NCBI GenBank assembly: GCA_947573745.1
Contig: CANPGX010000001.1
Location: 1-34,540, forward strand
Direction: 5' to 3'
From: an uncultured Erysipelotrichaceae bacterium
GTDB lineage: Bacteria > Bacillota_I > Bacilli_A > Erysipelotrichales > Coprobacillaceae
DNA length: 34,540 nucleotides
The stretch's first letter is position 1; each line of letters opens with the position of its first letter. This document shows positions 24,766 to 34,540 of the stretch, piece after piece. The position numbers were made by a program, and so were the translations under genes. The notes under the pieces were generated by a model. The model ran no database searches, had not been told where the DNA came from, and was given only the letters and a program-made list of their open reading frames with translations.

Positions 24766-26810
24766 ATGACATTTAAAGAATTATGGCATGATCACTGGAA
24801 TGGCTTTATCCCATCTGGTAAGTGGAATAAAGTTGTTGATTTAAGAGATTTTATTCAAGCTAACTTCACACCTTATGATGGTGATGAAAGCTTTTTAGCT
24901 GGTCCAACTGAAGCTACAAAGAAATTATGGGAGCAAGTGATGGATCTAACGAAACAGGAAAGAGAAGCCGGTGGTGTTTTAGATATGGATACAAAAATTG
25001 TATCTACGATTACATCTCATGGCGCTGGCTATCTTAATAAAGATCTAGAAACGATTGTTGGTTTCCAAACGGACAAACCATTTAAACGTTCTTTACAACC
25101 TTTTGGTGGTATTCGTATTGCTGAACAAGCTTGTGAAACCAATGGTTATAAAGTAGATCCTGAAATTTCACGTATTTTTAGAGATTGGCGTAAAACACAC
25201 AATCAAGGTGTATTTGATGTTTATACACCAGAAATCAGAGCTTGTCGTTCAAGCCATATCATTACAGGATTACCTGATGGTTATGGTCGTGGACGTATTA
25301 TTGGTGACTATCGTCGTGTTGCTTTATATGGTGTTGATAAACTGATTGAAGATAAGAAAAATCAATTGGCAACATCTCAAGTACGTATGACTTCTGAAAA
25401 CATTCGTTTACGCGAAGAATTAAGCGAACAAATTCGTGCATTACAAGAATTAAAAGAATTAGGTCACATTTATGGGTATGATATCAGTCAACCTGCAAAA
25501 AATACAAAAGAAGCTATTCAATGGTTATACTTTGGATATTTAGCAGCCGTTAAAGAACAAAACGGAGCAGCTATGTCTTTAGGTAGAACATCAACATTTA
25601 TTGATATCTATGTTGAAAGAGATTTAAAAAATGGCACTTTTACAGAAGAACAAATTCAAGAATTTATCGATCATTTTATCATGAAGTTAAGATTAGTCAA
25701 ATTTGCTAGAACACCTGACTATAACGCTATTTTCGCTGGTGATCCAACTTGGGTAACTGAATCTATTGCTGGTGTGAATATCGATGGTCAACACATGGTA
25801 ACCAAGACTTCTTTCCGTTATTTACATACTTTGGAAAATCTAGGAACTGCTCCTGAACCAAATATGACGGTTTTATGGTCTATTAAGTTACCTGCAGCAT
25901 TCAAGAGATATTGTGCTAAGATGTCTATTCATACTTCTTCTATTCAATATGAAAATGATGATTTAATGAGAGGCACTCATGGTGATGATTACGCTATTGC
26001 ATGTTGTGTATCAAGTATGCGTGTTGGTAAAGAAATGCAATTCTTTGGTGCTCGTGCAAACTTAGCTAAATGTTTATTATACGCTATTAACGGTGGTGTT
26101 GATGAAAAGACTAAGAATTCCGCCCAGTTGAAGGTGACTACCTAGAATATAATGACGTGATTGAAAAGTATAAAGATATGATGCAATGGTTAGCTGGTGT
26201 TTATGTGAATGCTTTAAACATCATTCACTACATGCATGATAAATATGCTTATGAAAGAATTCAAATGGCTTTACATGATCGTGAAGTTAAACGTTATTTT
26301 GCTACTGGTATCGCTGGTTTATCTGTTGTCACTGACTCATTATCTGCTATTAAATATGCTAAAGTTAAAGTTAAACGTGACGAAGATGGCATTGTTGTAG
26401 GATACGACGTAGAGGGTGATTTCCCTAAATATGGTAACGATGATGATCGTGCCGATGAAATTGCTTCATGGTTAGTTGAAACATTTATGGACTTCGTTCG
26501 TTCTCATCATACTTATCGTCATTCAGTACCAACTACTTCTATCTTAACCATCACATCAAATGTTGTTTATGGTAAAGCTACAGGGGATACTCCTGATGGT
26601 AGAAAAGCTGGTGAACCTTTCGCTCCTGGTGCTAATCCAATGCACGGTAGAGATACACACGGTGCTATTGCATCTTTATCTTCAGTTGCAAAATTACCAT
26701 TCAAGGATGCCCAAGATGGTATCTCTAATACATTCTCAATGATTCCAGGCGCTTTAGGAAAAGATATTATTACATCTGGATATCTTGATCTTGATGATTT
26801 AGACAAATAA
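24766..26810 (+). pseudogene. pflB: formate C-acetyltransferase (pyruvate formate-lyase) core, frameshifted near 26110-26116 and lacking the C-terminal glycyl-radical domain
   Basis: Track ORFs 24766..26145 and 26157..26810 are collinear with PflB (active-site AIACCVS; ...[30 protein letters not shown]...). The frame switches between ...GGVDEKTK (frame 1) and [15 protein letters not shown] (frame 0). The ORF ends ...[19 protein letters not shown] instead of continuing into the RVSGY domain. Confidence 0.85.
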
Positions 26811-26812
26811 CC

Positions 26813-27019
26813 ATGGTAAAAGAAAAAGATATCGATCAACTTATTCAAATGCTTGACCAATTTGCTATACAAGGATCAAGCCATATGAATGTTCAGGTCA
26901 ATCAAGATGGTGAATTAAACACTGAGGAAATCAGCATTACACAAGGTATGGACTGTGCCCTTGGGGATACAGCTTGTAAAATTCCTAATCTTCCTATGGA
27001 AGATGATGATGAATATTAA
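26813..27019 (+). CDS. 68-aa ORF, degenerate paralog of the N-terminal part of the PFL glycyl-radical domain (no RVSGY motif)
   Basis: KDIDQLIQMLDQFAIQGSSHMNVQV aligns with [24 protein letters not shown] in the next ORF. The C-terminal half is unrelated and includes CALGDTAC and an acidic tail. The ATG lies 2 nt after the core stop, and no clear RBS is present. Confidence 0.4.
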   Translation: MVKEKDIDQLIQMLDQFAIQGSSHMNVQVNQDGELNTEEISITQGMDCALGDTACKIPNLPMEDDDEY

Positions 27020-27040
27020 TTAAATAAGGAGGTTAAAACT

Positions 27041-27280
27041 ATGGAAAATGAACAAAGAGTAGATAATTTAGTGAATATGCTTGATGCATATGTTCAACAA
27101 GGAGGACATCATCTAAACGTAAATGTTCTTTCAAAAGAAACATTATTAGATGCTCAAAAACATCCTGAAAATTATCCACAATTAACAATTCGTGTTTCTG
27201 GATATGCTGTTAACTTTGTAAAACTTACTAAAGAACAACAGGATGACGTTATTTCACGTACATTCCACGAAAGTATGTAA
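27041..27280 (+). CDS. stand-alone glycyl-radical domain (PFL C-terminus / GrcA-like), 79 aa
   Basis: GGHHLNVNV...[37 protein letters not shown] is the canonical PFL C-terminus with the radical glycine motif RVSGY. Has its own strong RBS (AAGGAGG, 8 nt before the ATG). Confidence 0.85.
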
Positions 27281-27425
27281 CTATCTATAATTTTCATCTT
27301 AGCATGATTAAATTATAGCCAATTTAACAAACAAAAACGGGTATTTTTAGGATTTGTTATTGATACAGTATAGTTTCAACTTAAAAACAACTTACCCCAA
27401 AATTACCCCATAAAAAGTTAGAGAA

Positions 27426-27453
27426 GGAGCTGTCTAAGGATAGCTCTTTTTCT
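27426..27453 (+). terminator. weak candidate terminator downstream of the pfl locus
   Basis: GGAGCT-10 nt loop-AGCTCT followed by TTTTCT. Short stem with one G-U pair. Confidence 0.3.
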
Positions 27454-27615
27454 GTACTCAAAAAGCACCATAGAAGGCGCTTAAGTACTATATGTTTAAA
27501 TGTTAGTGATTGTTAACTTTTTGAGCTCTTATTGCCTTATCCTAGAAGATTTCTAAGTTTAGGCATGTATTTATATCTGTTTCCCATTTCTCGTTTAGAT
27601 AGAAATTACAGACTT

Positions 27616-27960
27616 CTATATATCTAATTGATCTATCTGTTGATTCAAAACTTCTTTGTATCTCTTCATATTGATATTGTATAGTTCACATATCTTGTAA
27701 TCCGCTTCTAAGAACTGATACTTATAACATAACAAAGGATATTCTTTGATGACCTTATCTAGTTCCAACCATGCTAGCAACATGCTTTCATAAGCTTCAT
27801 CTCTCTCCTGGAGCCTATCAACTAGGCTTTTATTTGATGTAGATCTTACTTGATCATAATTTATACTAGCTGTTCCGTGTAACTTACTATTGAGATACTC
27901 AAACTTGTTTTTAGCTTTGCCGTAAGATTCTAGAAATACTATTTTCTCTTTTCTATTCAT
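27616..27960 (-). CDS. hypothetical; possible sigma-70 region-4 / DUF1492- or RinA/ArpU-like phage regulator
   Basis: 114 aa. Based on general shape only: a coiled N-terminal half followed by ...PLLCYKYQFLEADYKICELYNINMKRYKEVL, which resembles an r4-type HTH. Last gene of the element. Confidence 0.3.
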   Translation of the reverse strand: MNRKEKIVFLESYGKAKNKFEYLNSKLHGTASINYDQVRSTSNKSLVDRLQERDEAYESMLLAWLELDKVIKEYPLLCYKYQFLEADYKICELYNINMKRYKEVLNQQIDQLDI

Positions 27961-27968
27961 TGGCCACT

Positions 27969-28217
27969 TTATAAACCTTCGATTCTAAATGAGTTGATGT
28001 AGTCTATTTGTTCTTGATTCAATTCTAGTTCCTTTGCTATTTCTAATATCTCTTCTTGGCTCATTTCATTTATCATCATAATTGACTTAAACTTTTCTTT
28101 TTGATCACGTTGATATCTTCTTTTTATACCACTATTGATTCCACCTTTTCGGCCATTTACTCGTGCTCGTTCTTCACCTTTTCTATAGGGTTTAAGGTTT
28201 TCTAAGGTTGCTCTCAT
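27969..28217 (-). CDS. small basic protein (82 aa), possibly DNA-binding / small-terminase-like N-terminus
   Basis: Start moved to the ATG at 28217 behind AGGAGAG. MRATLENLKPYRKGEERARVNGRKGGINSGIKRR is Lys/Arg/Gly-rich. Functional guess only. Confidence 0.3.
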   Translation of the reverse strand: MRATLENLKPYRKGEERARVNGRKGGINSGIKRRYQRDQKEKFKSIMMINEMSQEEILEIAKELELNQEQIDYINSFRIEGL

Positions 28218-28283
28218 ATCTTCTCTCCTTGCGAGTTTATTCACGCTTCAACATATTAAAAAGGGAAAAAGATAGACTTACGC

Positions 28284-28874
28284 CTATCCTATATACTTTA
28301 AGCCACCATCAAATTTTTCACCAATGAAATCATTCATTCCCATAATACCAAATCTAGTAGAACGGTTCCCCAATCCATTTTCAACATAATCTTCTACTTG
28401 TTCTTTTTCTCTATTAAGATAATCAATAGTTTTCTTAACTCGATCTTCTTCTAAAAAGCGTGGAATCGCAACACCGCTCTTATTGATAGCGCCATTAATG
28501 AGTTTCAAAGCATACATATCTTCGATATAATTGTTATTCACGATCTCATGTAATGCCATTTCATCATAAGCTCCAAGTTCTATACCTTTGATAATATTAC
28601 TTAAGCCAACTTGGTAGCTTGTATCTGACAACCTTCTTTTCATTTCTGCTTTGTTATTTTCTTGTACTGCTGTGATTGCTTGATCTAGAATATCATTCAA
28701 AAGCTTTGCATACTTCTCTTCTACCTTGTGGAAATTACTCTGTAAAAGCTCTTTTTGTTTTTTCTTCCCCTCAATGGTGAGATCTTCATTATCATCTACT
28801 TTTGCAATTTTATTCATGATCTTATTTCGTTCGTTCTCATATTCATTTAATAAACGTAAAAATTTTTCTTTCAT
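28284..28874 (-). CDS. hypothetical protein (196 aa), element accessory gene B
   Basis: Track ORF trimmed to the ATG at 28874 behind AAAGGAG. K/E/N-rich and helical-looking, with no TM segment and no motif recognised. Confidence 0.6.
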   Translation of the reverse strand: MKEKFLRLLNEYENERNKIMNKIAKVDDNEDLTIEGKKKQKELLQSNFHKVEEKYAKLLNDILDQAITAVQENNKAEMKRRLSDTSYQVGLSNIIKGIELGAYDEMALHEIVNNNYIEDMYALKLINGAINKSGVAIPRFLEEDRVKKTIDYLNREKEQVEDYVENGLGNRSTRFGIMGMNDFIGEKFDGGLKYIG

Positions 28875-28896
28875 TCCTCTTATATTCTCCTTTCTC

Positions 28897-29490
28897 TTAT
28901 AAAATAAAATCATGGTTGAAGAAGTTTTCTAATTGAGCTTCAATGGCAAGCAATGGGCTAGCCCCACTAAGATATAAGGCTGTTCCTAAACTAGCTCTAT
29001 CCCAGTTCCAAATGTAATGCTCGGCTCCTTCTTTAGCATTGGTCAATAGATCTTGTACGGCATCAGCTGACAAGATATCAATATTCTTTGCCTTTCCTAC
29101 CTCATGTAATAATCCAATGAGCGCCTTGCATGCAATGTAATTCTTTCTATAGCTCTTAATGTAGACTTCTGCTTCTAGATCACTTGTACTTTCTTTACTT
29201 GCCCTAATAGCTTCTAGTGTTGAGGTAAATGTATTTGGTGCTGGTTCTGTAAGAATGTTGTGCATTTCTTCAAATAATTTATTAAACTCTTCATTGATGA
29301 TTGCTAAAGCAGATTGTCTTTCATTGATAACTGTATTGTTCAGCTGTGCAATTGCCTTATCTAATTTCTCATCTAAAAGGGCTCCTCTATAATTATTTTT
29401 ATACTCTTTTTCCACTTTTTCATAGTTCTCATAAGCTGATGTTAAAACATCATTGTATGTATTCATGACTTTTTTTGTTTGTTCAAACAT
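28897..29490 (-). CDS. hypothetical protein (197 aa), element accessory gene A
   Basis: RBS AAAGGAGA upstream. Helical-looking, with no TM segment and no motif recognised. Confidence 0.6.
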   Translation of the reverse strand: MFEQTKKVMNTYNDVLTSAYENYEKVEKEYKNNYRGALLDEKLDKAIAQLNNTVINERQSALAIINEEFNKLFEEMHNILTEPAPNTFTSTLEAIRASKESTSDLEAEVYIKSYRKNYIACKALIGLLHEVGKAKNIDILSADAVQDLLTNAKEGAEHYIWNWDRASLGTALYLSGASPLLAIEAQLENFFNHDFIL

Positions 29491-29515
29491 AGTTTTATTA
29501 TTCTCCTTTTGTTAT

Positions 29516-29713
29516 TTAAATGACTTTTACTTGATGAGCTTCTTTACCGCTCTTTCCTTCTACTGACTGAAATTCTACTTCTTGGTTCGCCACTAGCTTT
29601 CTAAATCCTTGCATATCAATGAAACTTTGATGTACGAAGTATTCATGGTCATCTTCTCCCATGATAAAGCCATAACCTTTTTCTGTGATATATCTTCTTA
29701 CTGTTCCTTTCAT
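29516..29713 (-). CDS. cold-shock domain protein (CspA family) carried on the element
   Basis: 65 aa with RNP1-like KGYGFI and an RNP2-like FVH motif. Confidence 0.9.
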   Translation of the reverse strand: MKGTVRRYITEKGYGFIMGEDDHEYFVHQSFIDMQGFRKLVANQEVEFQSVEGKSGKEAHQVKVI

Positions 29714-29899
29714 TGCTTTACTATCCTTTCTTTATATTTCTTGTTTACTTCCCCCACCACCCACACCACTTATAAATGTATCTTCACTTACTTATGCTCC
29801 TTTCTATTGTTCTTGTGAGCTCGTAAGCTCTTGCGATTCAAACATTCTTATCAAAGAGGACTTATTTATCGTATTTGTACATAGTCCTCTGTAATCGTC

Positions 29900-30136
29900 C
29901 TATAAAGCCTTTATTCTATTTACAATTTCATTCTTATAGTTTTCTAAATCATTCCTTAATGCTTTTAGATCATCTATCTTTGATGTTTGTATGCGATTAT
30001 CTAGCAATCCCTCTATCAGTTTATCTATGGATCCGTAATAGGATCTATTGATGTAGCCCGTCTTGGCTTTCTTTTGAAGGATATAAGATAGATCATCTTC
30101 TTTTATCCTGTATTCGTCATTTAACTGTACAATCAT
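29900..30136 (-). CDS. hypothetical protein (78 aa)
   Basis: RBS AGGTGA. The ATG overlaps the upstream stop (ATGA). A hairpin lies just downstream (29855..29890). Confidence 0.5.
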   Translation of the reverse strand: MIVQLNDEYRIKEDDLSYILQKKAKTGYINRSYYGSIDKLIEGLLDNRIQTSKIDDLKALRNDLENYKNEIVNRIKAL

Positions 30137-30387
30137 GACTTATCACCTACTTTATAATCACCGCATGGGGCACCAATAAGGAGTTTAATAGCTGTATCAA
30201 ACCCAGCTACAAATCCCTGTCTTTCATTGATGACACCATATTCATTGATCAGGTCTTTTACTTCCAAAGGGATGGGCGTAGACTTTGTTATCTGTTCCAT
30301 TATCCTCTTTTCCTCTGTGTTCTCTTCTTCTGCTAAGGTCCAATCCCAATACAGATCTTCTATCAATGATTGCTTGATCTTATTCAT
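30133..30387 (-). CDS. hypothetical protein (84 aa)
   Basis: RBS GAGGTGA 6 nt upstream. Overlaps the end of the upstream ORF. Confidence 0.5.
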   Translation of the reverse strand: MNKIKQSLIEDLYWDWTLAEEENTEEKRIMEQITKSTPIPLEVKDLINEYGVINERQGFVAGFDTAIKLLIGAPCGDYKVGDKS

Positions 30388-30838
30388 CTTTCATCACCTC
30401 TTGGTGTTCTTCCCATTCTTTCATTGCCTTTTTATGCTGTTCTACCCACTCTTCTAAGATAGCAAAGGTTCTTGGTAACTCTCCTTTTTCTCTAAAGTAA
30501 GTATGCATATATGAGAAAATACATAAGCTATTCCAATTGTTAAAATCTTTCTCACATTCTCTGCCTCTAGTCATGCCATAATTAAATGCGTAGATCATGG
30601 CCATTGCTTTATTCTCGTGTCGTGAATCTATTTCTTTAAGAACATGCAAGTAATTCCTATTTTCTATTAATGGCATGTCATCTAATTCTTTCATAGTCTG
30701 TTCAATTCTTTTATTCATTTCTATATACCCCTTTTCCTTGAATTGTGGTATAATCTCTTTGGTGTTTGGATTATACCGTTGGCTCTTTATTGTTGGCGCA
30801 ATATTGAGCCTTTTTATTTTGCGAAATCTATTTATCAT
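30380..30838 (-). CDS. hypothetical protein (152 aa; an alternative RBS-preceded start at M41 is possible)
   Basis: Long ORF in the operon frame. The N-terminal 40 aa are very basic. No motif recognised. Confidence 0.5.
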   Translation of the reverse strand: MINRFRKIKRLNIAPTIKSQRYNPNTKEIIPQFKEKGYIEMNKRIEQTMKELDDMPLIENRNYLHVLKEIDSRHENKAMAMIYAFNYGMTRGRECEKDFNNWNSLCIFSYMHTYFREKGELPRTFAILEEWVEQHKKAMKEWEEHQEVMKDE

Positions 30839-30851
30839 GCGTCTTTATTAG

Positions 30852-31076
30852 TTAGTCTTTTAGGCGTATCGTATTTTCTAGACAATCTATAATATCAGTA
30901 ATTCGTTGCAACCATAATAGTCTCATCACCTTTAAGATTGTATCGAAGTCTGCATTTTCACCATGTTGTGCGATAAACTCTTTAGCTTGATCATATGATT
31001 TTGAAAATTCAGCTTGTCTAGATTTTTCTGCTTTTTGTTGCAATATTTCTAACACCATATTTTTATATCCTTTCAT
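30852..31076 (-). CDS. hypothetical protein (74 aa)
   Basis: Track ORF 30852..31121 trimmed to the ATG at 31076 behind GAGGTG. The longer version would start inside an iteron and has no RBS. Confidence 0.45.
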   Translation of the reverse strand: MKGYKNMVLEILQQKAEKSRQAEFSKSYDQAKEFIAQHGENADFDTILKVMRLLWLQRITDIIDCLENTIRLKD

Positions 31077-31105
31077 TTTTAGCACCTCTAGTGAGGGGAT
31101 ATTTT

Positions 31106-31337
31106 TGATAATGTTATCCATTTTTGTTGATTCTATCAGTGTTTTTATAACATTATCATGTTGATAAGGTTATCTATTTTATTTGATAACATTATCAATT
31201 CTTACAAGCACTTAATTTTATTGAATAACTTTATAACATTATCAAGTTGATAAAGTTATATTTATATTGATTTAATCAATATTTTTTAATAACATTATCA
31301 ATTTTTAAGTGTCACTAGAGAAACTTGATAATGCTAT
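31106..31337. repeat. iteron array / probable replication origin of the element
   Basis: ATAACATTATCA occurs perfectly at 31147, 31186, 31233 and 31289. Inverted copies TGATAATGTTAT occur at 31106 (perfect) and, with 1 mismatch, at 31162, 31248 and 31326. An AT-rich palindrome TTGAT-TTA-ATCAA lies around 31267-31279. Confidence 0.75.
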
Positions 31338-33136
31338 TCATTTTCTTCCAATTCTTCTATTTTTTTCAAACAAATAACTGTTTTCCTTTTGGTATCTCCG
31401 TTTGGACTTCCTATTCTCTTTATCTCAATAAGGTTACTTTTACTTAAATCTGCTTTGGCTCGGTTAAAAGTACCTGTGCTTATACTCATAGCTTTAGCCA
31501 ATTCATTTAATTCTGTAGCTTCCATCCCCCCTTCTTGGAGAGAATTTAATATAAAGTTCTTGGCTTCATCAAAAGCTGTACCTTTTTTATCTATTCTTAC
31601 TTTCCCATTTTGATAGTCATAGTCTTTCTTATTGGTAGTTCCCCAGGCTTGAGGCACCCCATCATTTATAGAAAATATCGTTGTCATCTGTTCAATAACA
31701 TAATTGCTTTTTTCATGAGACAAGTAACGCATATTATCATTTCCAGTGAAGCCAACAATAAATACACTTCTTGCAATATCCCATATATCCGAACTATCAG
31801 CAATACGATTGCGGCCATAAGCATTATCTCTCTTGTTTGTATGGGCCATGATAAGCACTGTCACACCATATTTCATGCCATAGCCTATAAGGGGATTCAA
31901 AACATCTCTCATAGCATTTCTATAACCCATATTAACATTGGCTGGTATAAAACTCTGCAATGGATCAAATACCACCAGCGCCGGCCTATGGTAAGCTATA
32001 AGATTCTCTAGAAACTGGCTATTATATTTAATTTCCTTAAAGCGTGGATCCTCTAGTGGAATGGTCATAATGTTTTCCATATTAGCACCATTTCTTTTTA
32101 ATCTCCCTTTAAGTGTTGCCTGTATATCATCTTCACTTGAAAAATACATAACTTTCTGTGGTGGTTTATCTTCTATGAAATCATAAACATCAAAGAAACA
32201 AGAGCCTCCACTACTAATAGCAGCGACAACATTGCACCATACCGTGGTCTTTCCTACTCCACCATTTCCAGCTATTAAAGTGATTTGCCCTTTAGGAATA
32301 AATCCCTGAATAAGCCATTCTGGTTCCTTTTCTTCCACATTAGACATATTTACAACACTTAGATCATTAGTATTTACCCTACTATTGGTTTTACCAATAT
32401 TAGTACCCTTATCATATTTCAAAGCGCTATGTACTATCGTCTTGACCTCATCTTTCGTTAAAGGTGGATTACACTTAGCTTGATTTTCATTCCATACAGC
32501 GCTAAGGATAGCCTTATCTGATAATCCTTTTGCCTGCAACGAACTGGCCAGTTGAAACAGTGTAGCATTTCTACTGCCTTCACCTATTTCCTTTGGAAGT
32601 TCTAAAGGCGGATTGTATACGTCTTCTATCTCTATATCTTTTATACCTTTCAAGAACTCATAAACGGTCTCTGTAGCGTCATTGATATCCTCGCTTAACC
32701 ATTTATACTTCTTACCATTAATCACGCTAGGCGGTGCTAATACGTAGCCATTATCACTTCTTATGTCTATCCCTTCATAAAGATTGATCTTATTCTTAAA
32801 CTCTCCTTTTACCCAATAGTACATATGATAGCCACCACTAGGGGTTTTTACTGTTGCTGTACTTGGAAGACTAGACCCATAAGTATTGAATGATTCTTGA
32901 CCTTCAGCACCGTTCTTAACATCAACATCAACCACTAAAAGGCTATTTCCTGTAGCTATGCCGATATTATACTTTGGGTTTTTATCCCACCACTTTTGGA
33001 TAGTTTCTTTATCCACAGTTGCTTCATTCTTCCATGATCTTAATACTTGCTTGCTTTTAGATCCTTCTTGTAAGGGAAAGACCCTAAGCCCCATATTAGC
33101 GTATCTCAACGCCCACTCTTTTAAATCATCACTCAC
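31334..33136 (-). CDS. bifunctional primase-polymerase (PrimPol) fused to an AAA_25/RepA-like helicase-ATPase and a C-terminal wHTH
   Basis: PrimPol motifs LLVVDVDVKNG and PSGGYHMYYW. PriCT-like GSRNATLFQLASSL. Walker A GNGGVGKTT, Walker B ALVVFDPLQSF. The GTG start overlaps the upstream stop. Confidence 0.85.
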   Translation of the reverse strand: MSDDLKEWALRYANMGLRVFPLQEGSKSKQVLRSWKNEATVDKETIQKWWDKNPKYNIGIATGNSLLVVDVDVKNGAEGQESFNTYGSSLPSTATVKTPSGGYHMYYWVKGEFKNKINLYEGIDIRSDNGYVLAPPSVINGKKYKWLSEDINDATETVYEFLKGIKDIEIEDVYNPPLELPKEIGEGSRNATLFQLASSLQAKGLSDKAILSAVWNENQAKCNPPLTKDEVKTIVHSALKYDKGTNIGKTNSRVNTNDLSVVNMSNVEEKEPEWLIQGFIPKGQITLIAGNGGVGKTTVWCNVVAAISSGGSCFFDVYDFIEDKPPQKVMYFSSEDDIQATLKGRLKRNGANMENIMTIPLEDPRFKEIKYNSQFLENLIAYHRPALVVFDPLQSFIPANVNMGYRNAMRDVLNPLIGYGMKYGVTVLIMAHTNKRDNAYGRNRIADSSDIWDIARSVFIVGFTGNDNMRYLSHEKSNYVIEQMTTIFSINDGVPQAWGTTNKKDYDYQNGKVRIDKKGTAFDEAKNFILNSLQEGGMEATELNELAKAMSISTGTFNRAKADLSKSNLIEIKRIGSPNGDTKRKTVICLKKIEELEENE

Positions 33137-33270
33137 TCTCTCACCTCATCATATTTCAGTATTAAATCACATAAGGCAATAAAAGCTATGATGATCACCC
33201 AATACCACCTAATGCCCCCTAGAATGGCCATAGCTAACACAAACGTGTAGTATATCCATTCTTTCTTCAT
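33133..33270 (-). CDS. small hydrophobic protein (45 aa), not in ORF track
   Basis: Own translation: MKKEWIYYTFVLAMAILGGIRWYWVIIIAFIALCDLILKYDEVRE. Both ends overlap their neighbours (ATGA upstream, GTGA downstream). Confidence 0.4.
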   Translation of the reverse strand: MKKEWIYYTFVLAMAILGGIRWYWVIIIAFIALCDLILKYDEVRE

Positions 33271-33515
33271 TGTCTTACCTCTTTCATTGTTCTTAAGGCT
33301 TCTACTCGATTGCTAATGTCATAGCCTGTCATGTTCCTTTGGAACTTTCTAAACTCCTCTTGAGTAAATACCCAACCTTTACCCGTTTTAATACCTTTTA
33401 GTAGACCTAGCTCTCTCCATTCATAGACATGTTGCACTGATGTTTTCATCAATTCTGCCACGTCTTCATGTGTTAAGGGCACTAGATCTTTTAATGTTTC
33501 TTTGTCGTAGTTCAT
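33267..33515 (-). CDS. excisionase-like / MerR-type HTH_17 DNA-binding protein
   Basis: LTHEDVAELMKTSVQHVYEWRELGLLKGIKTGKGWVFTQEEFRKF fits the phage Xis/HTH_17 pattern. Confidence 0.55.
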   Translation of the reverse strand: MNYDKETLKDLVPLTHEDVAELMKTSVQHVYEWRELGLLKGIKTGKGWVFTQEEFRKFQRNMTGYDISNRVEALRTMKEVRQ

Positions 33516-33536
33516 TTCTTTAGTTTCTCCTTTCTT

Positions 33537-33734
33537 TTAGTCAGTTCTAAATAGTTCATCTATTGTTCCATCAAACTGTAGGAACTCTTTTACCTTTTTA
33601 CATTCTTCTAGTGTGAAGTTTCTTTTTCCCCTTAACTTTTCAGTTATCGCTGTAGTTCCTAAGCCAATAGCAATAGAAAGCTGTTTTCTAGTGATTCCTT
33701 TTAAAGTCAATTCACGCTCTAAAATGTAGTACAT
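33537..33734 (-). CDS. Cro-like XRE-family HTH regulator
   Basis: 65 aa. LKGITRKQLSIAIGLGTTAITEKLRGKRNFT. Divergent from the repressor gene. Confidence 0.8.
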   Translation of the reverse strand: MYYILERELTLKGITRKQLSIAIGLGTTAITEKLRGKRNFTLEECKKVKEFLQFDGTIDELFRTD

Positions 33735-33761
33735 AGTAGTATGGTCATCTCCTTTCCGGTT

Positions 33762-33828
33762 TACGAAATATCGTTAACTTGTTTACTATATTACACGGTA
33801 TAACAAATATTGTCAACGGTATATCGTT
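33762..33828. promoter_or_regulatory. repeated operator-like pseudo-palindromes in the divergent switch region
   Basis: TACGAAATATCGTT (33762..33775) and AACGGTATATCGTT (33815..33828) are 12/14 identical and 53 bp apart. ATATCGTTAA is perfectly repeated (33768, 33821). ACGGTATA is also repeated (33795, 33816). Confidence 0.55.
33788..33816 (-). promoter_or_regulatory. promoter of the Cro-like / replication operon
   Basis: Minus strand: TTGACA - 17 nt - TAATAT. The -35 overlaps one operator copy. Confidence 0.6.
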
Positions 33829-33856
33829 AATTTTTTTGTAAATACGTTTGTTTTTA

Positions 33857-33885
33857 TTGAAAATATATGTAATTTAGTTTATTAT
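33857..33885 (+). promoter_or_regulatory. promoter of the repressor gene
   Basis: TTGAAA - 17 nt - TATTAT, followed by the RBS GAGGTGA and the ATG at 33906. Confidence 0.5.
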
Positions 33886-33905
33886 TGAGATGAGGTGATA
33901 GCATT

Positions 33906-34540
33906 ATGAGAATAGAAAACGAACTAAAAAACCTTATTTTATCAAGATATAAGAGTTTGAGGCAGTTCTCTCTAGATATTGATATGCCCTATTCGACTAT
34001 AGACACTATGCTAAAAAAAGGTATAGGCGGAGCTAGCATTCAAAATATCATTAAAATTTGCCAAGCATTGGCCATTGATACTGACGCTTTGGCAGAAGGA
34101 AGACTTGAAGAGCGTAAAGCAAACGACATTGTTGTGACTTTTAGGGAACAGACTATGCTTAAAAAATATCGCTCTATTGATCAAGAAGGAAGACAAACCG
34201 TCGATACTGTTTTAAATGATATCTATGAACGTTGTAATATCATCAAAGAAGATGAAATTGTTTATGGTTCATTAAATAAATGGATTGATAAGTTACCATC
34301 TTTAGCAAGTGCGGGTATTGGTGACTATCTAGCTGATGGATATGAAACAGAAAAAATAGCAGTGCCTAACGATAGCAAAGCCAACTATGCTATTGGTGTA
34401 AATGGGGATAGTATGCTGCCAACCTATAAAGATGGTGATGTAGTTCTTGTTCAACGAACTAATGATCTCGATTATGGCGATATAGGTATCTTTATTATTG
34501 ATGGTAATTGTTTCATCAAAGAATACCAACAAGATAAGCT
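33906..34540 (+). CDS. CI/LexA-type repressor (XRE HTH + S24 peptidase domain), partial (3' end off window), not in ORF track
   Basis: Own translation: MRIENELKNLILSRYKSLRQFSLDIDMPYSTIDTMLKKGIGGASIQNIIKICQALAIDTDAL...LASAGIGDY...GVNGDSMLPTYKDGDVVLVQ...FIKEY. The GDSM serine motif is typical of S24 autopeptidases. Confidence 0.85.
   Translation, partial: MRIENELKNLILSRYKSLRQFSLDIDMPYSTIDTMLKKGIGGASIQNIIKICQALAIDTDALAEGRLEERKANDIVVTFREQTMLKKYRSIDQEGRQTVDTVLNDIYERCNIIKEDEIVYGSLNKWIDKLPSLASAGIGDYLADGYETEKIAVPNDSKANYAIGVNGDSMLPTYKDGDVVLVQRTNDLDYGDIGIFIIDGNCFIKEYQQDK

What the first reader, a model, noticed from the sequence alone, without database searches (positions are those of the whole stretch)
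28284..29490. Twin ~196-aa unrecognisable proteins in the satellite accessory operon: candidate novel helper-interference or anti-phage module
Seen in sequence:
- Two adjacent same-strand ORFs are nearly identical in length: 197 aa, and 196 aa after moving the second start to the RBS-preceded ATG at 28874.
- They are 22 nt apart, and each follows an AAAGGAG box with an unusually long ~12-nt spacer.
- Both are K/E/N/L-rich and look all-helical.
- Neither has a TM segment, and I see no Walker, HNH, PD-(D/E)xK, TIR, SIR2 or protease motif.
- There is only faint collinear similarity (A: RKNYIACKALIGLL; B: NNNYIEDMYALKLI), so they may be distant paralogs.

Established knowledge: the region downstream of ori in SaPIs/PICIs carries capsid-size redirection and helper-interference genes (cpm, ppi, pti). 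In other PICIs it carries defence cargo.

Inference: this pair, possibly acting with the upstream csp and the downstream 82-aa basic protein, is the most likely place for an undescribed function.
Basis: partly seen in the sequence, partly recalled or inferred. Interest (0 to 1): 0.7.

Follow-up and report, generated by a model that had tools for sequence, protein, structure and literature searches.

The report
Twin helical proteins of phage satellites
Two adjacent genes in a small phage-parasite island encode very distant copies of one undescribed all-helical protein family that seems confined to such islands in gut Firmicutes; it probably helps the island exploit or block its helper phage, but that function is inferred, not shown.

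Summary
On the minus strand, A (29490..28897, 197 aa) and B (28874..28284, 196 aa) are real, conserved genes. They lie 22 nt apart, and each follows AAAGGAG plus a 12-nt spacer.

Neither matches Pfam, PHROGs, PADLOC, NCBIfam or PDB. A weak HEPN hit for A is a singleton and looks spurious.

An exhaustive profile search shows A is not an orphan. It belongs to an undescribed family of at least 262 clusters, almost all 190-220 aa. AlphaFold gives a confident model (pLDDT 92.6) with no PDB fold match.

No relative was found in 50,697 phage genomes. Every context recovered is a small integrase-bearing island without capsid, terminase or tail genes. These islands often carry a sigma-like regulator, and some carry HK97-gp10-like or Mu-F-like genes.

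B is a small, very distant branch of the same superfamily (hhalign score 30.5; shuffled controls reach at most 26.4).

Two paralogues per island recur, but the partners reshuffle. Near-identical B genes sit beside three different partners.

Best reading: a satellite-specific module that binds helper-phage assembly or packaging proteins. This is inferred at about 0.4. A role with the island's sigma-like regulator is the main rival. A defence function is unsupported.

The parts
28897..29490 (-). Gene A, 197 aa. All-helical: a long N-terminal helical hairpin (helices 3-33 and 36-81) plus a C-terminal helical bundle. Member of an undescribed family of at least 262 clusters.
   Evidence: (pLDDT 92.6, pTM 0.82).
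28284..28874 (-). Gene B, 196 aa, all-helical. A small family and a very distant branch of the A superfamily.
29503..29509 (-). AAAGGAG ribosome-binding box of A, 12 nt before the ATG at 29490.
   Evidence: Read.
28887..28893 (-). AAAGGAG ribosome-binding box of B, 12 nt before the ATG at 28874. It lies inside the 22-nt A-B gap.
   Evidence: Read. The start is supported by homologue N-termini.
28269..28290 (-). Terminator-like hairpin followed by a T-run, overlapping the stop codon of B. It may end the csp-A-B unit.
   Evidence: consensus scan only.
29516..29713 (-). Cold-shock-domain protein, 65 aa, immediately upstream of A.
   Evidence: Pfam CSD 1e-17. A CSD gene also lies two genes upstream of a distant A relative in L007.
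27969..28244 (-). Only a PHROG of unknown function matches, and no relative was found in the other islands.
   Evidence: (phrog_2412, 1e-5).
27616..27960 (-). 114-aa sigma-70-region-4-like small protein, the last gene of the island. Homologues sit next to A or B in L001 and L004.
   Evidence: Sigma70_r4_2 at 6e-6 in 2 of 3 family members.
31334..33136 (-). PrimPol / PriCT_1 / AAA_25 replication protein of the island, 600 aa.
33267..33734 (-). Two small HTH genes: an HTH_17 excisionase-like gene (33515..33267) and an HTH_3 Cro-like gene (33734..33537).
33906..34540 (+). Divergent cI/LexA-like repressor (HTH plus Peptidase_S24) that runs off the end of the window. The integrase is presumably beyond it.
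   Evidence: Peptidase_S24, 5e-15.

Best explanation
Shown:
- A and B are expressed-looking, conserved genes of a PICI-like phage satellite in a low-GC gut Firmicute.
- A belongs to a previously undescribed all-alpha family of about 200 aa, with a helical hairpin followed by a helical bundle.
- Every context recovered for this family is a small integrative island that lacks capsid, terminase and tail genes.
- B is a highly diverged paralogue of the same superfamily.

Inferred:
- The two proteins are the satellite's helper-exploitation module. They have no enzyme signature, so they most likely act by binding helper-phage virion-assembly or packaging proteins (capsid, scaffold, connector or terminase).
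- That binding would redirect or block assembly in favour of the satellite.
- The A-type gene would be the rapidly exchanged, helper-specific component, and B the slower-evolving one.

Which helper protein is bound, and whether capsid size changes, is unknown.
For: Position. A and B lie after the pri-rep module and are transcribed in the same direction as it. That is where PICIs carry interference genes (PMC6092414; window map).

Restriction to satellites.
- There is no tblastn match for A, B or two other family members in 50,697 phage records, a set that includes Streptococcus satellite records.
- All recovered contexts (window, L001, L004, L006, L010, L011/L015, L016, L018) are islands with an integrase or serine recombinase and no capsid, terminase or tail genes.

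Morphogenesis neighbours.
- L016: A, then a Phage_Mu_F protein (1e-14), then an HK97-gp10-like protein (2e-8), then a sigma factor.
- L006 ends in a gp10-like gene.
- L018: A-like, sigma, gp10-like, second A-like.

Cassette behaviour.
- B genes that are 84-90% identical are followed by an A-type gene, by a divergent A-superfamily 200-aa gene, or by an unrelated 177-aa helical gene.
- The A and B phylogenies are discordant.
- This resembles the cpmAB/rcm/ccm swap at a fixed position in SaPI operon I (PMC12409344).

Protein character.
- A is confidently all-helical with a coiled hairpin and shows no catalytic motif, as is true of known size-switchers and scaffolds.
- Two paralogues per island recur independently (window and L018).
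Against: - There is no experimental or structural link to any helper protein.
- Foldseek finds no similarity to CpmB, to the 80alpha scaffold or to P4 Psu (3rx6 ranks 40th, E 2.6). The best PDB hit has E 0.21 and TM about 0.2.
- None of 119 family members recurrently hits a scaffold or any other PHROG.
- No terS, pac or cos site was identified, and no helper phage is known.
- The motif PxPxDFxxTLExIK...KYxxNYxA is conserved across very divergent members. That fits a conserved target better than fast-evolving capsid proteins.
- The consistent neighbour is a sigma-like regulator, which fits a transcriptional role equally well.
- The model of B is poor (pLDDT 63.8).
Confidence: 0.4

Rival explanations
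1. A and B are partners or modulators of late transcription. They would bind the island's sigma-70-region-4-like protein, the helper's late activator or RNA polymerase. They would act as anti-sigma or co-activator proteins, comparable in logic to SaPI PtiA/PtiM or to T4 AsiA and Rsd.
For: - A sigma-r4-like or full sigma-70 gene lies in the same gene string in the window, L001 (between A and B, 24 nt before B), L004, L016 and L018.
- The strongly conserved motif across the family suggests a conserved target.
- SaPI operon I carries ptiA/ptiB/ptiM next to the capsid switchers (PMC12409344).
Against: - There is no fold match to Rsd, AsiA or anti-sigma domains in the PDB.
- L010, L011 and L015 have B plus a partner but no sigma-like gene nearby.
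- Partner swapping next to a near-identical B suggests variable targets rather than a conserved one.
Confidence: 0.25
2. A, with or without B, is an abortive-infection or toxin-type defence cargo, for example a degenerate HEPN RNase like AbiU2.
For: - A gives sub-threshold Pfam hits to HEPN_AbiU2 (E 9e-4, 19 bits against a cutoff of 26.8) and HEPN_MAE_28990.
- Satellites often carry defence genes. A KAP NTPase follows B in L001.
Against: - The HEPN hit occurs in 1 of 4 close relatives and 1 of 119 family members.
- No conserved Rx4-6H motif appears in the family alignment.
- PADLOC gives nothing, and there is no HEPN fold hit in the PDB.
- The genes behave as core genes of the islands, not as hotspot cargo.
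Confidence: 0.07
3. A and B serve the island's own maintenance, such as replication accessory functions, partition or excision control, and are unrelated to the helper phage.
For: - They lie downstream of the replication module.
- Family members occur with several different replication modules (PrimPol-AAA_25, PrimPol-D5, ParA plus PrimPol-like), as a core island function might.
Against: - Their neighbours are morphogenesis-type and late-regulator genes rather than replication genes.
- There is no DNA-binding or NTPase signature.
- Rapid partner swapping is not expected of housekeeping genes.
Confidence: 0.12

Closest known systems
SaPI operon I capsid-size switchers (CpmA/CpmB, Rcm, Ccm) and the neighbouring PtiA/PtiB/PtiM
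   Same: - Satellite-encoded and located after the replication module.
- CpmB and Rcm are all-helical and non-enzymatic, as A and B appear to be.
- The switchers are non-homologous cassettes swapped at a fixed position between otherwise near-identical islands (PMC12409344). This is the pattern seen next to B in L004, L010 and L011.
   Different: - No sequence or fold similarity.
- A and B are about 196 aa with a hairpin-plus-bundle fold. CpmB, by the paper's description, is a much smaller helical protein.
- No terS is present.
- The island repressor carries an S24 peptidase domain, unlike Stl.
- No capsid phenotype is known.
Satellite P4 late operon: Sid (external scaffold), Delta (late-gene activator), Psu (capsid decoration and Rho inhibitor)
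   Same: From my own knowledge of P4, this is analogous architecture: two helical proteins of roughly 190-240 aa flank or accompany a small late-gene regulator. Compare L001 (A, sigma-like, B) and L018 (A, sigma, ..., A).
   Different: - Psu (3rx6) appears only at rank 40 with E 2.6 and TM 0.26, so there is no homology.
- The regulator here is sigma-region-4-like, not Delta-like.
- The hosts are Gram-positive.
Uncharacterised viral-metagenome proteins A0A4D5ZHA1, A0A8S5NXV7 and A0A8S5P6L7 (BFVD)
   Same: These are the only structural neighbours of the A model. Foldseek probability is 1.0, E ranges from 9.5e-4 to 2.5e-2, and TM reaches 0.73. Two of them are of similar length, 196-208 aa.
   Different: - They are unannotated and I could not retrieve their genomic context.
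- Sequence identity is 13-16%.
HEPN_AbiU2 (Pfam PF18734)
   Same: An all-helical domain, with a weak sub-threshold profile hit to A residues 67-171.
   Different: The hit is not reproduced in any relative. There is no Rx4-6H motif and no structural match. Rejected.

Membership tests
PICI-type phage satellite (the island that carries A and B) | Conserved organisation: divergent regulators, xis, pri-rep, then interference genes in the same direction (PMC6092414) | tested here: met
   S24 repressor on the plus strand. HTH_3, HTH_17, PrimPol-AAA_25, small ORFs, csp, A, B, a 91-aa ORF and a 114-aa ORF all on the minus strand.
PICI-type phage satellite (the island that carries A and B) | Integrase and specific att site | not testable with these tools
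   The island runs off the window end at 34540. Related islands L001, L011/L015 and L006 have an integrase in the expected place.
PICI-type phage satellite (the island that carries A and B) | [quoted passage not shown] | tested here: met
   No capsid, portal, terminase, tail or lysis family is found in 27300..34540.
PICI-type phage satellite (the island that carries A and B) | Master repressor not cleaved in the SOS response (Stl-type); induction by a helper protein | tested here: inconclusive
   The repressor carries a Peptidase_S24 domain (5e-15). That is phage-cI-like rather than Stl-like. Induction was not testable.
PICI-type phage satellite (the island that carries A and B) | Packaging in helper particles and interference with the helper | not testable with these tools
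   This needs experiments, and no helper phage has been identified.
New A family (about 200-aa helical hairpin plus bundle): membership of A | Full-length profile match with the motif PxPxDFxxTLExIK...E...KYxxNYxA | tested here: met
   262 clusters at E <= 1e-3 and 129 at E <= 1e-10, nearly all full length. The motif is conserved.
New A family: membership of B | Significant profile-profile similarity above shuffled controls, collinear, with the same helix layout | tested here: inconclusive
   - hhalign score 30.5, E 1.6e-4, probability 50%, against shuffled maxima of 19.1 and 26.4.
- The A profile hits only B-type proteins among all non-A ORFs of the loci (E 5e-5 to 5e-4). The window's own B scores only 0.31.
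- Helix layouts correlate at 0.27, reached by 5 of 181 circular shifts.
- The A motif is not conserved in B.
HEPN / AbiU2 | Profile score above the gathering threshold, and a conserved Rx4-6H motif | tested here: not met
   19.2 bits against a cutoff of 26.8. The hit occurs in 1 of 119 members. No conserved R...H motif.
Phage scaffolding proteins / SaPI CpmB / P4 Psu-Sid | Sequence-profile or fold similarity to a characterised member | tested here: not met
   No recurrent PHROG or Pfam family. The best Foldseek PDB hit has E 0.21, and Psu has E 2.6.
Known anti-phage defence systems (PADLOC) | Match to a defence-system protein model | tested here: not met
   Only noise-level hits, E >= 0.004 at 11-15 bits.

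The most novel reading that the evidence does not exclude
The A superfamily, including B, is a widespread and previously unrecognised class of satellite-encoded effectors in gut Bacillota. It has a new fold. It is typically deployed as two diverged paralogues alongside a satellite sigma-like regulator. Under this reading it reprogrammes helper-phage assembly or late gene expression by a mechanism unrelated to Cpm, Sid, TcaP, Rpp or Pti. It would also be a practical marker gene for a large, unannotated group of satellites.
Probability: 0.35. Interest if true: 0.7.

Novelty: new variant of a known kind. Interest (0 to 1): 0.5.

Why it matters
Satellite interference proteins are the main known route by which satellites reshape phage capsids and block phage growth. 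Each new class so far (CpmAB, Ccm, Rcm, Sid, TcaP, Rpp) has revealed a new assembly-control mechanism.

This family has three useful properties:
- It is unannotated, it has a confident new fold, and it comprises at least 262 sequence clusters.
- It appears specific to small islands of gut Firmicutes, where satellites are almost unstudied.
- It could serve as a marker for finding those satellites.

The natural partner-swap series (L004, L010, L011) would also make helper-specificity determinants directly testable.

Tried and rejected
Family and structure searches that gave nothing:
- Pfam, PHROGs, PADLOC and NCBIfam on A, B and all neighbours gave nothing for A or B.
- The HEPN lead was dropped after scanning 4 and then 119 relatives.
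- PDB sequence-profile searches with 4- and 119-sequence profiles returned only coiled-coil noise such as apolipoprotein A-I.
- Foldseek of A against the PDB gave nothing.
- Foldseek of the low-confidence B model against BFVD gave a best E of 0.34, which is uninformative.

Sequence-collection searches:
- tblastn of A, B, the 152-aa ORF, P0013 and P0119 against the phage collection found no match.
- The PrimPol protein found only distant phage primases there.
- One Streptococcus satellite record (Javan289) scanned in six frames gave nothing.
- The word-indexed homologue search badly under-reported the A family: 2-5 relatives against 262 clusters by exhaustive search.
- Viral-contig scans with the A4 and A10 alignments found nothing. 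The A7 and A11 alignments were too diverse to give search patterns.
- The genome and metagenome scans added only L010, L014 and L015.

Other:
- A literature search for gut Firmicute satellites with sigma or head-tail genes returned nothing relevant.
- The idea that A and B form an obligate co-evolving heterodimer was rejected, because their phylogenies are discordant and gene order varies.

Full report
1. What is in the sequence

The finding's two ORFs are on the minus strand. A runs 29490..28897 (197 aa). B runs 28874..28284 (196 aa).

Reading directly, AAAGGAG lies at 29509..29503 and at 28893..28887. Each box is 12 nt from its ATG, and 22 nt separate the stop of A from the start of B. A terminator-like hairpin (28290..28269) overlaps the stop of B (consensus scan only).

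2. The surrounding island

The surroundings are a PICI-like island.
- On the plus strand, a cI/LexA-like repressor with a Peptidase_S24 domain starts at 33906 and runs off the window end.
- On the minus strand, in order: HTH_3, HTH_17, PrimPol/PriCT_1/AAA_25 (600 aa), four small ORFs, a cold-shock-domain protein, A, B, a 91-aa basic ORF, and a 114-aa protein.
- Relatives of the 114-aa protein match Sigma70_r4_2.
- No structural or lysis genes are present.

This matches the published PICI layout, in which interference genes follow pri-rep in the same direction (PMC6092414). The S24 repressor is phage-like rather than Stl-like.

3. Recognisability

- A and B have no hit above threshold in Pfam, PHROGs, PADLOC or NCBIfam, nor by sequence profile against the PDB.
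- A gives sub-threshold HEPN hits (AbiU2, E 9e-4, 19 bits against 26.8). These occur in 1 of 4 close relatives and 1 of 119 family members, and no Rx4-6H motif is conserved. I treat them as spurious.

4. A is not an orphan

- The word-indexed search found only two relatives. A concatenated A+B alignment added four more.
- The exhaustive HMMER search with a 7-sequence profile found 262 clusters (50% identity) at E <= 1e-3. Of these, 129 were at E <= 1e-10 and 40 at E <= 1e-30. Nearly all are 190-220 aa and match end to end.
- The motif PxPxDFxxTLExIK ... E ... KYxxNYxA is conserved. E106 and Y118 are present in at least 90% of 119 members.
- AlphaFold2 with seven sequences gives a confident model: pLDDT 92.6, pTM 0.82. 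It has a long helical hairpin (3-33, 36-81) followed by a six-helix bundle.
- Foldseek finds no PDB neighbour (best E 0.21, TM about 0.2; P4 Psu at rank 40, E 2.6).
- In BFVD only three uncharacterised metagenomic viral proteins match (probability 1.0; TM up to 0.73).
- None of 119 members recurrently hits any Pfam or PHROG family.

I conclude this is an undescribed family with an apparently new fold.

5. Where the family lives

tblastn of A, B and two other family members against 50,697 phage records found nothing. That collection does include Streptococcus satellite records.

Every context I could recover is a small island with an integrase or serine recombinase and a replication module, and without capsid, terminase or tail genes.
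- L001 (Erysipelotrichales MAG): int, repressor, HTH, PrimPol-AAA_25..., A (213 aa), sigma-r4-like (115 aa), B, KAP NTPase.
- L004: PrimPol-D5..., B, A, sigma-r4-like.
- L006: int, HTH_17, ParA, PrimPol-like..., A..., HK97-gp10-like.
- L016: serine recombinase..., a small 64-aa protein, A, Phage_Mu_F (1e-14), HK97-gp10-like (2e-8), sigma-70.
- L018: D5-type primase, A-like (218 aa), sigma-70, an 86-aa ORF, gp10-like, and a second A-like (198 aa). The two copies are 25% identical.

The family is therefore satellite-associated. It sits among late-regulator and head-completion genes.

6. Are A and B paralogues?

- Pairwise BLASTP (E 0.48) and small-profile hhalign (probability 0.4-3%) do not show it.
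- With a 133-sequence A profile, hhalign against the 5-sequence B alignment gives score 30.5, E 1.6e-4, probability 50%.
- Controls: reversed 11.3; 107 column shuffles 11.8 +/- 2.2 (max 19.1); 103 shuffles of 14-column blocks 15.6 +/- 2.6 (max 26.4).
- In a six-frame scan of all fetched loci, the A profile hits only A members, the L010/L014 partner (E 1e-8) and B-type proteins (E 5e-5 to 5e-4).
- The low-confidence B model (pLDDT 63.8) has helix boundaries close to those of A. The correlation is 0.27 and is reached by 5 of 181 circular shifts.

I rate distant paralogy as likely (about 0.7) but not proven.

7. Is the pair conserved?

B was found in six independent contexts: the window, L001, L004/L005, L010/L014, and L011/L015. 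It always has an adjacent or near-adjacent helical partner of 177-213 aa.

Gene order varies, and the histories of A and B disagree.
- Window against L001: PrimPol 59%, B 54%, A 23%.
- Window against L004: PrimPol 32%, B 31%, A 44%.

Among L004, L010 and L011, B is 84-90% identical, yet the partner differs in each.
- In L004 it is an A-type gene.
- In L010 it is a divergent A-superfamily 200-aa protein (hmmsearch 3.5e-9; hhalign probability 93%).
- In L011 it is an unrelated 177-aa helical protein.

So the twin arrangement recurs, but as reshuffled modules. That argues against an obligate co-evolving heterodimer. It favours the A-type gene as an exchangeable specificity component.

8. Mechanism

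Nothing here shows function directly. My inference runs as follows.
- The position matches that of PICI interference genes.
- The family is restricted to satellites.
- Its neighbours include Mu-F-like and gp10-like head genes and late regulators.
- The fold is non-enzymatic and all-helical with a coiled hairpin.
- The cassette swapping looks just like the cpmAB/rcm/ccm exchange at a fixed site in SaPI operon I, where the switchers are unrelated helical proteins that bind the helper capsid protein (PMC12409344).

On that basis I commit to binding of helper assembly or packaging proteins, redirecting or blocking virion assembly, at confidence about 0.4.

The main rival (0.25) is a role with the sigma-like regulator or the helper's late activator, in the manner of anti-sigma or Pti proteins. 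The frequent sigma neighbour and the strongly conserved motif support it. A defence or Abi role (0.07) and island housekeeping (0.12) are less likely.

9. Comparison with known systems, and novelty

- Functionally the closest analogues are the SaPI operon I proteins and the P4 Sid-Delta-Psu operon. Membership in any of those families was tested and not met, by sequence and by fold.
- The island meets the organisational PICI criteria that can be tested here. Its repressor is S24-type, and its integrase and att site lie outside the window.
- I class the finding as a new variant of a known kind: satellite accessory or interference genes carried by a new protein family and fold.
- Interest is moderate (0.5). 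The family is real, sizeable, unannotated and testable, but its function is inferred from context only.

Noticed in passing
window 24766-27280 (+): The pyruvate formate-lyase gene next to the island is broken into ORFs of 459 and 217 aa. These are followed by two tandem C-terminal-like pieces. The first (26813-27019) is a degenerate copy of the region around IDxLIxMLDxF..G..H.NV.V. The second (27041-27280) is an intact glycyl-radical tail (RVSGYAV). This could be a footprint of integration into the pfl 3' end, a GrcA-like spare part, or a pseudogene.
   Followed up: no
window 33906-34540 (+): The island's divergent repressor has a Peptidase_S24 domain (5e-15). It is LexA/cI-like and possibly SOS-cleavable, unlike the Stl repressors of classical PICIs.
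   Followed up: partly
L011:224-3432 compared with L015:2218-4030: The same island occupies the same site, next to a zinc-metallopeptidase gene. In L011 it is directly preceded by prophage tail-fibre, holin and endolysin genes. In L015 it is preceded by spoIVA and HU. The adjacent prophage in L011 is a candidate helper.
   Followed up: no
L011:11555-12445 and L001:10729-12015: Likely cargo lies downstream of the A/B module. L011 and L015 have a 296-aa protein with no Pfam hit. L001 has a KAP-family NTPase.
   Followed up: no
L006:6552-6749, L007:1057-1242, L008:1106-1309, L016:6597-6791: A conserved 61-67-aa protein (motif ...QQT..G......R....) immediately precedes the A-family gene in the more distant islands. 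The window has a cold-shock-domain gene in that position, and L007 has both.
   Followed up: partly
L018:6623-7279 and L018:10001-10597: One IMG/VR island carries two clear A-family paralogues (25% identical). They flank a sigma-70 gene and a gp10-like gene. This is an independent instance of the twin arrangement.
   Followed up: yes
window 30380-30838 (-); L001:7453-7788; L004:7621-7980: The 152-aa ORF is another island-specific conserved protein (35-60% identity between islands, motif FNYG..GRECE.D...WN). It matches no family and has no match in the phage collection.
   Followed up: partly
(method): The word-indexed homologue search returned 2-5 relatives of A. The exhaustive profile search found 262 clusters. 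Orphan status inferred from the indexed search alone would have been wrong.
   Followed up: yes
BFVD hits: The best viral structural neighbours of both the A model (A0A4D5ZHA1) and the poor B model (A0A4D5ZKZ6) share one UniProt accession series. From memory I think this series may be the Streptococcus Javan satellite prophages. I could not retrieve the sequences or their contexts to check.
   Followed up: partly
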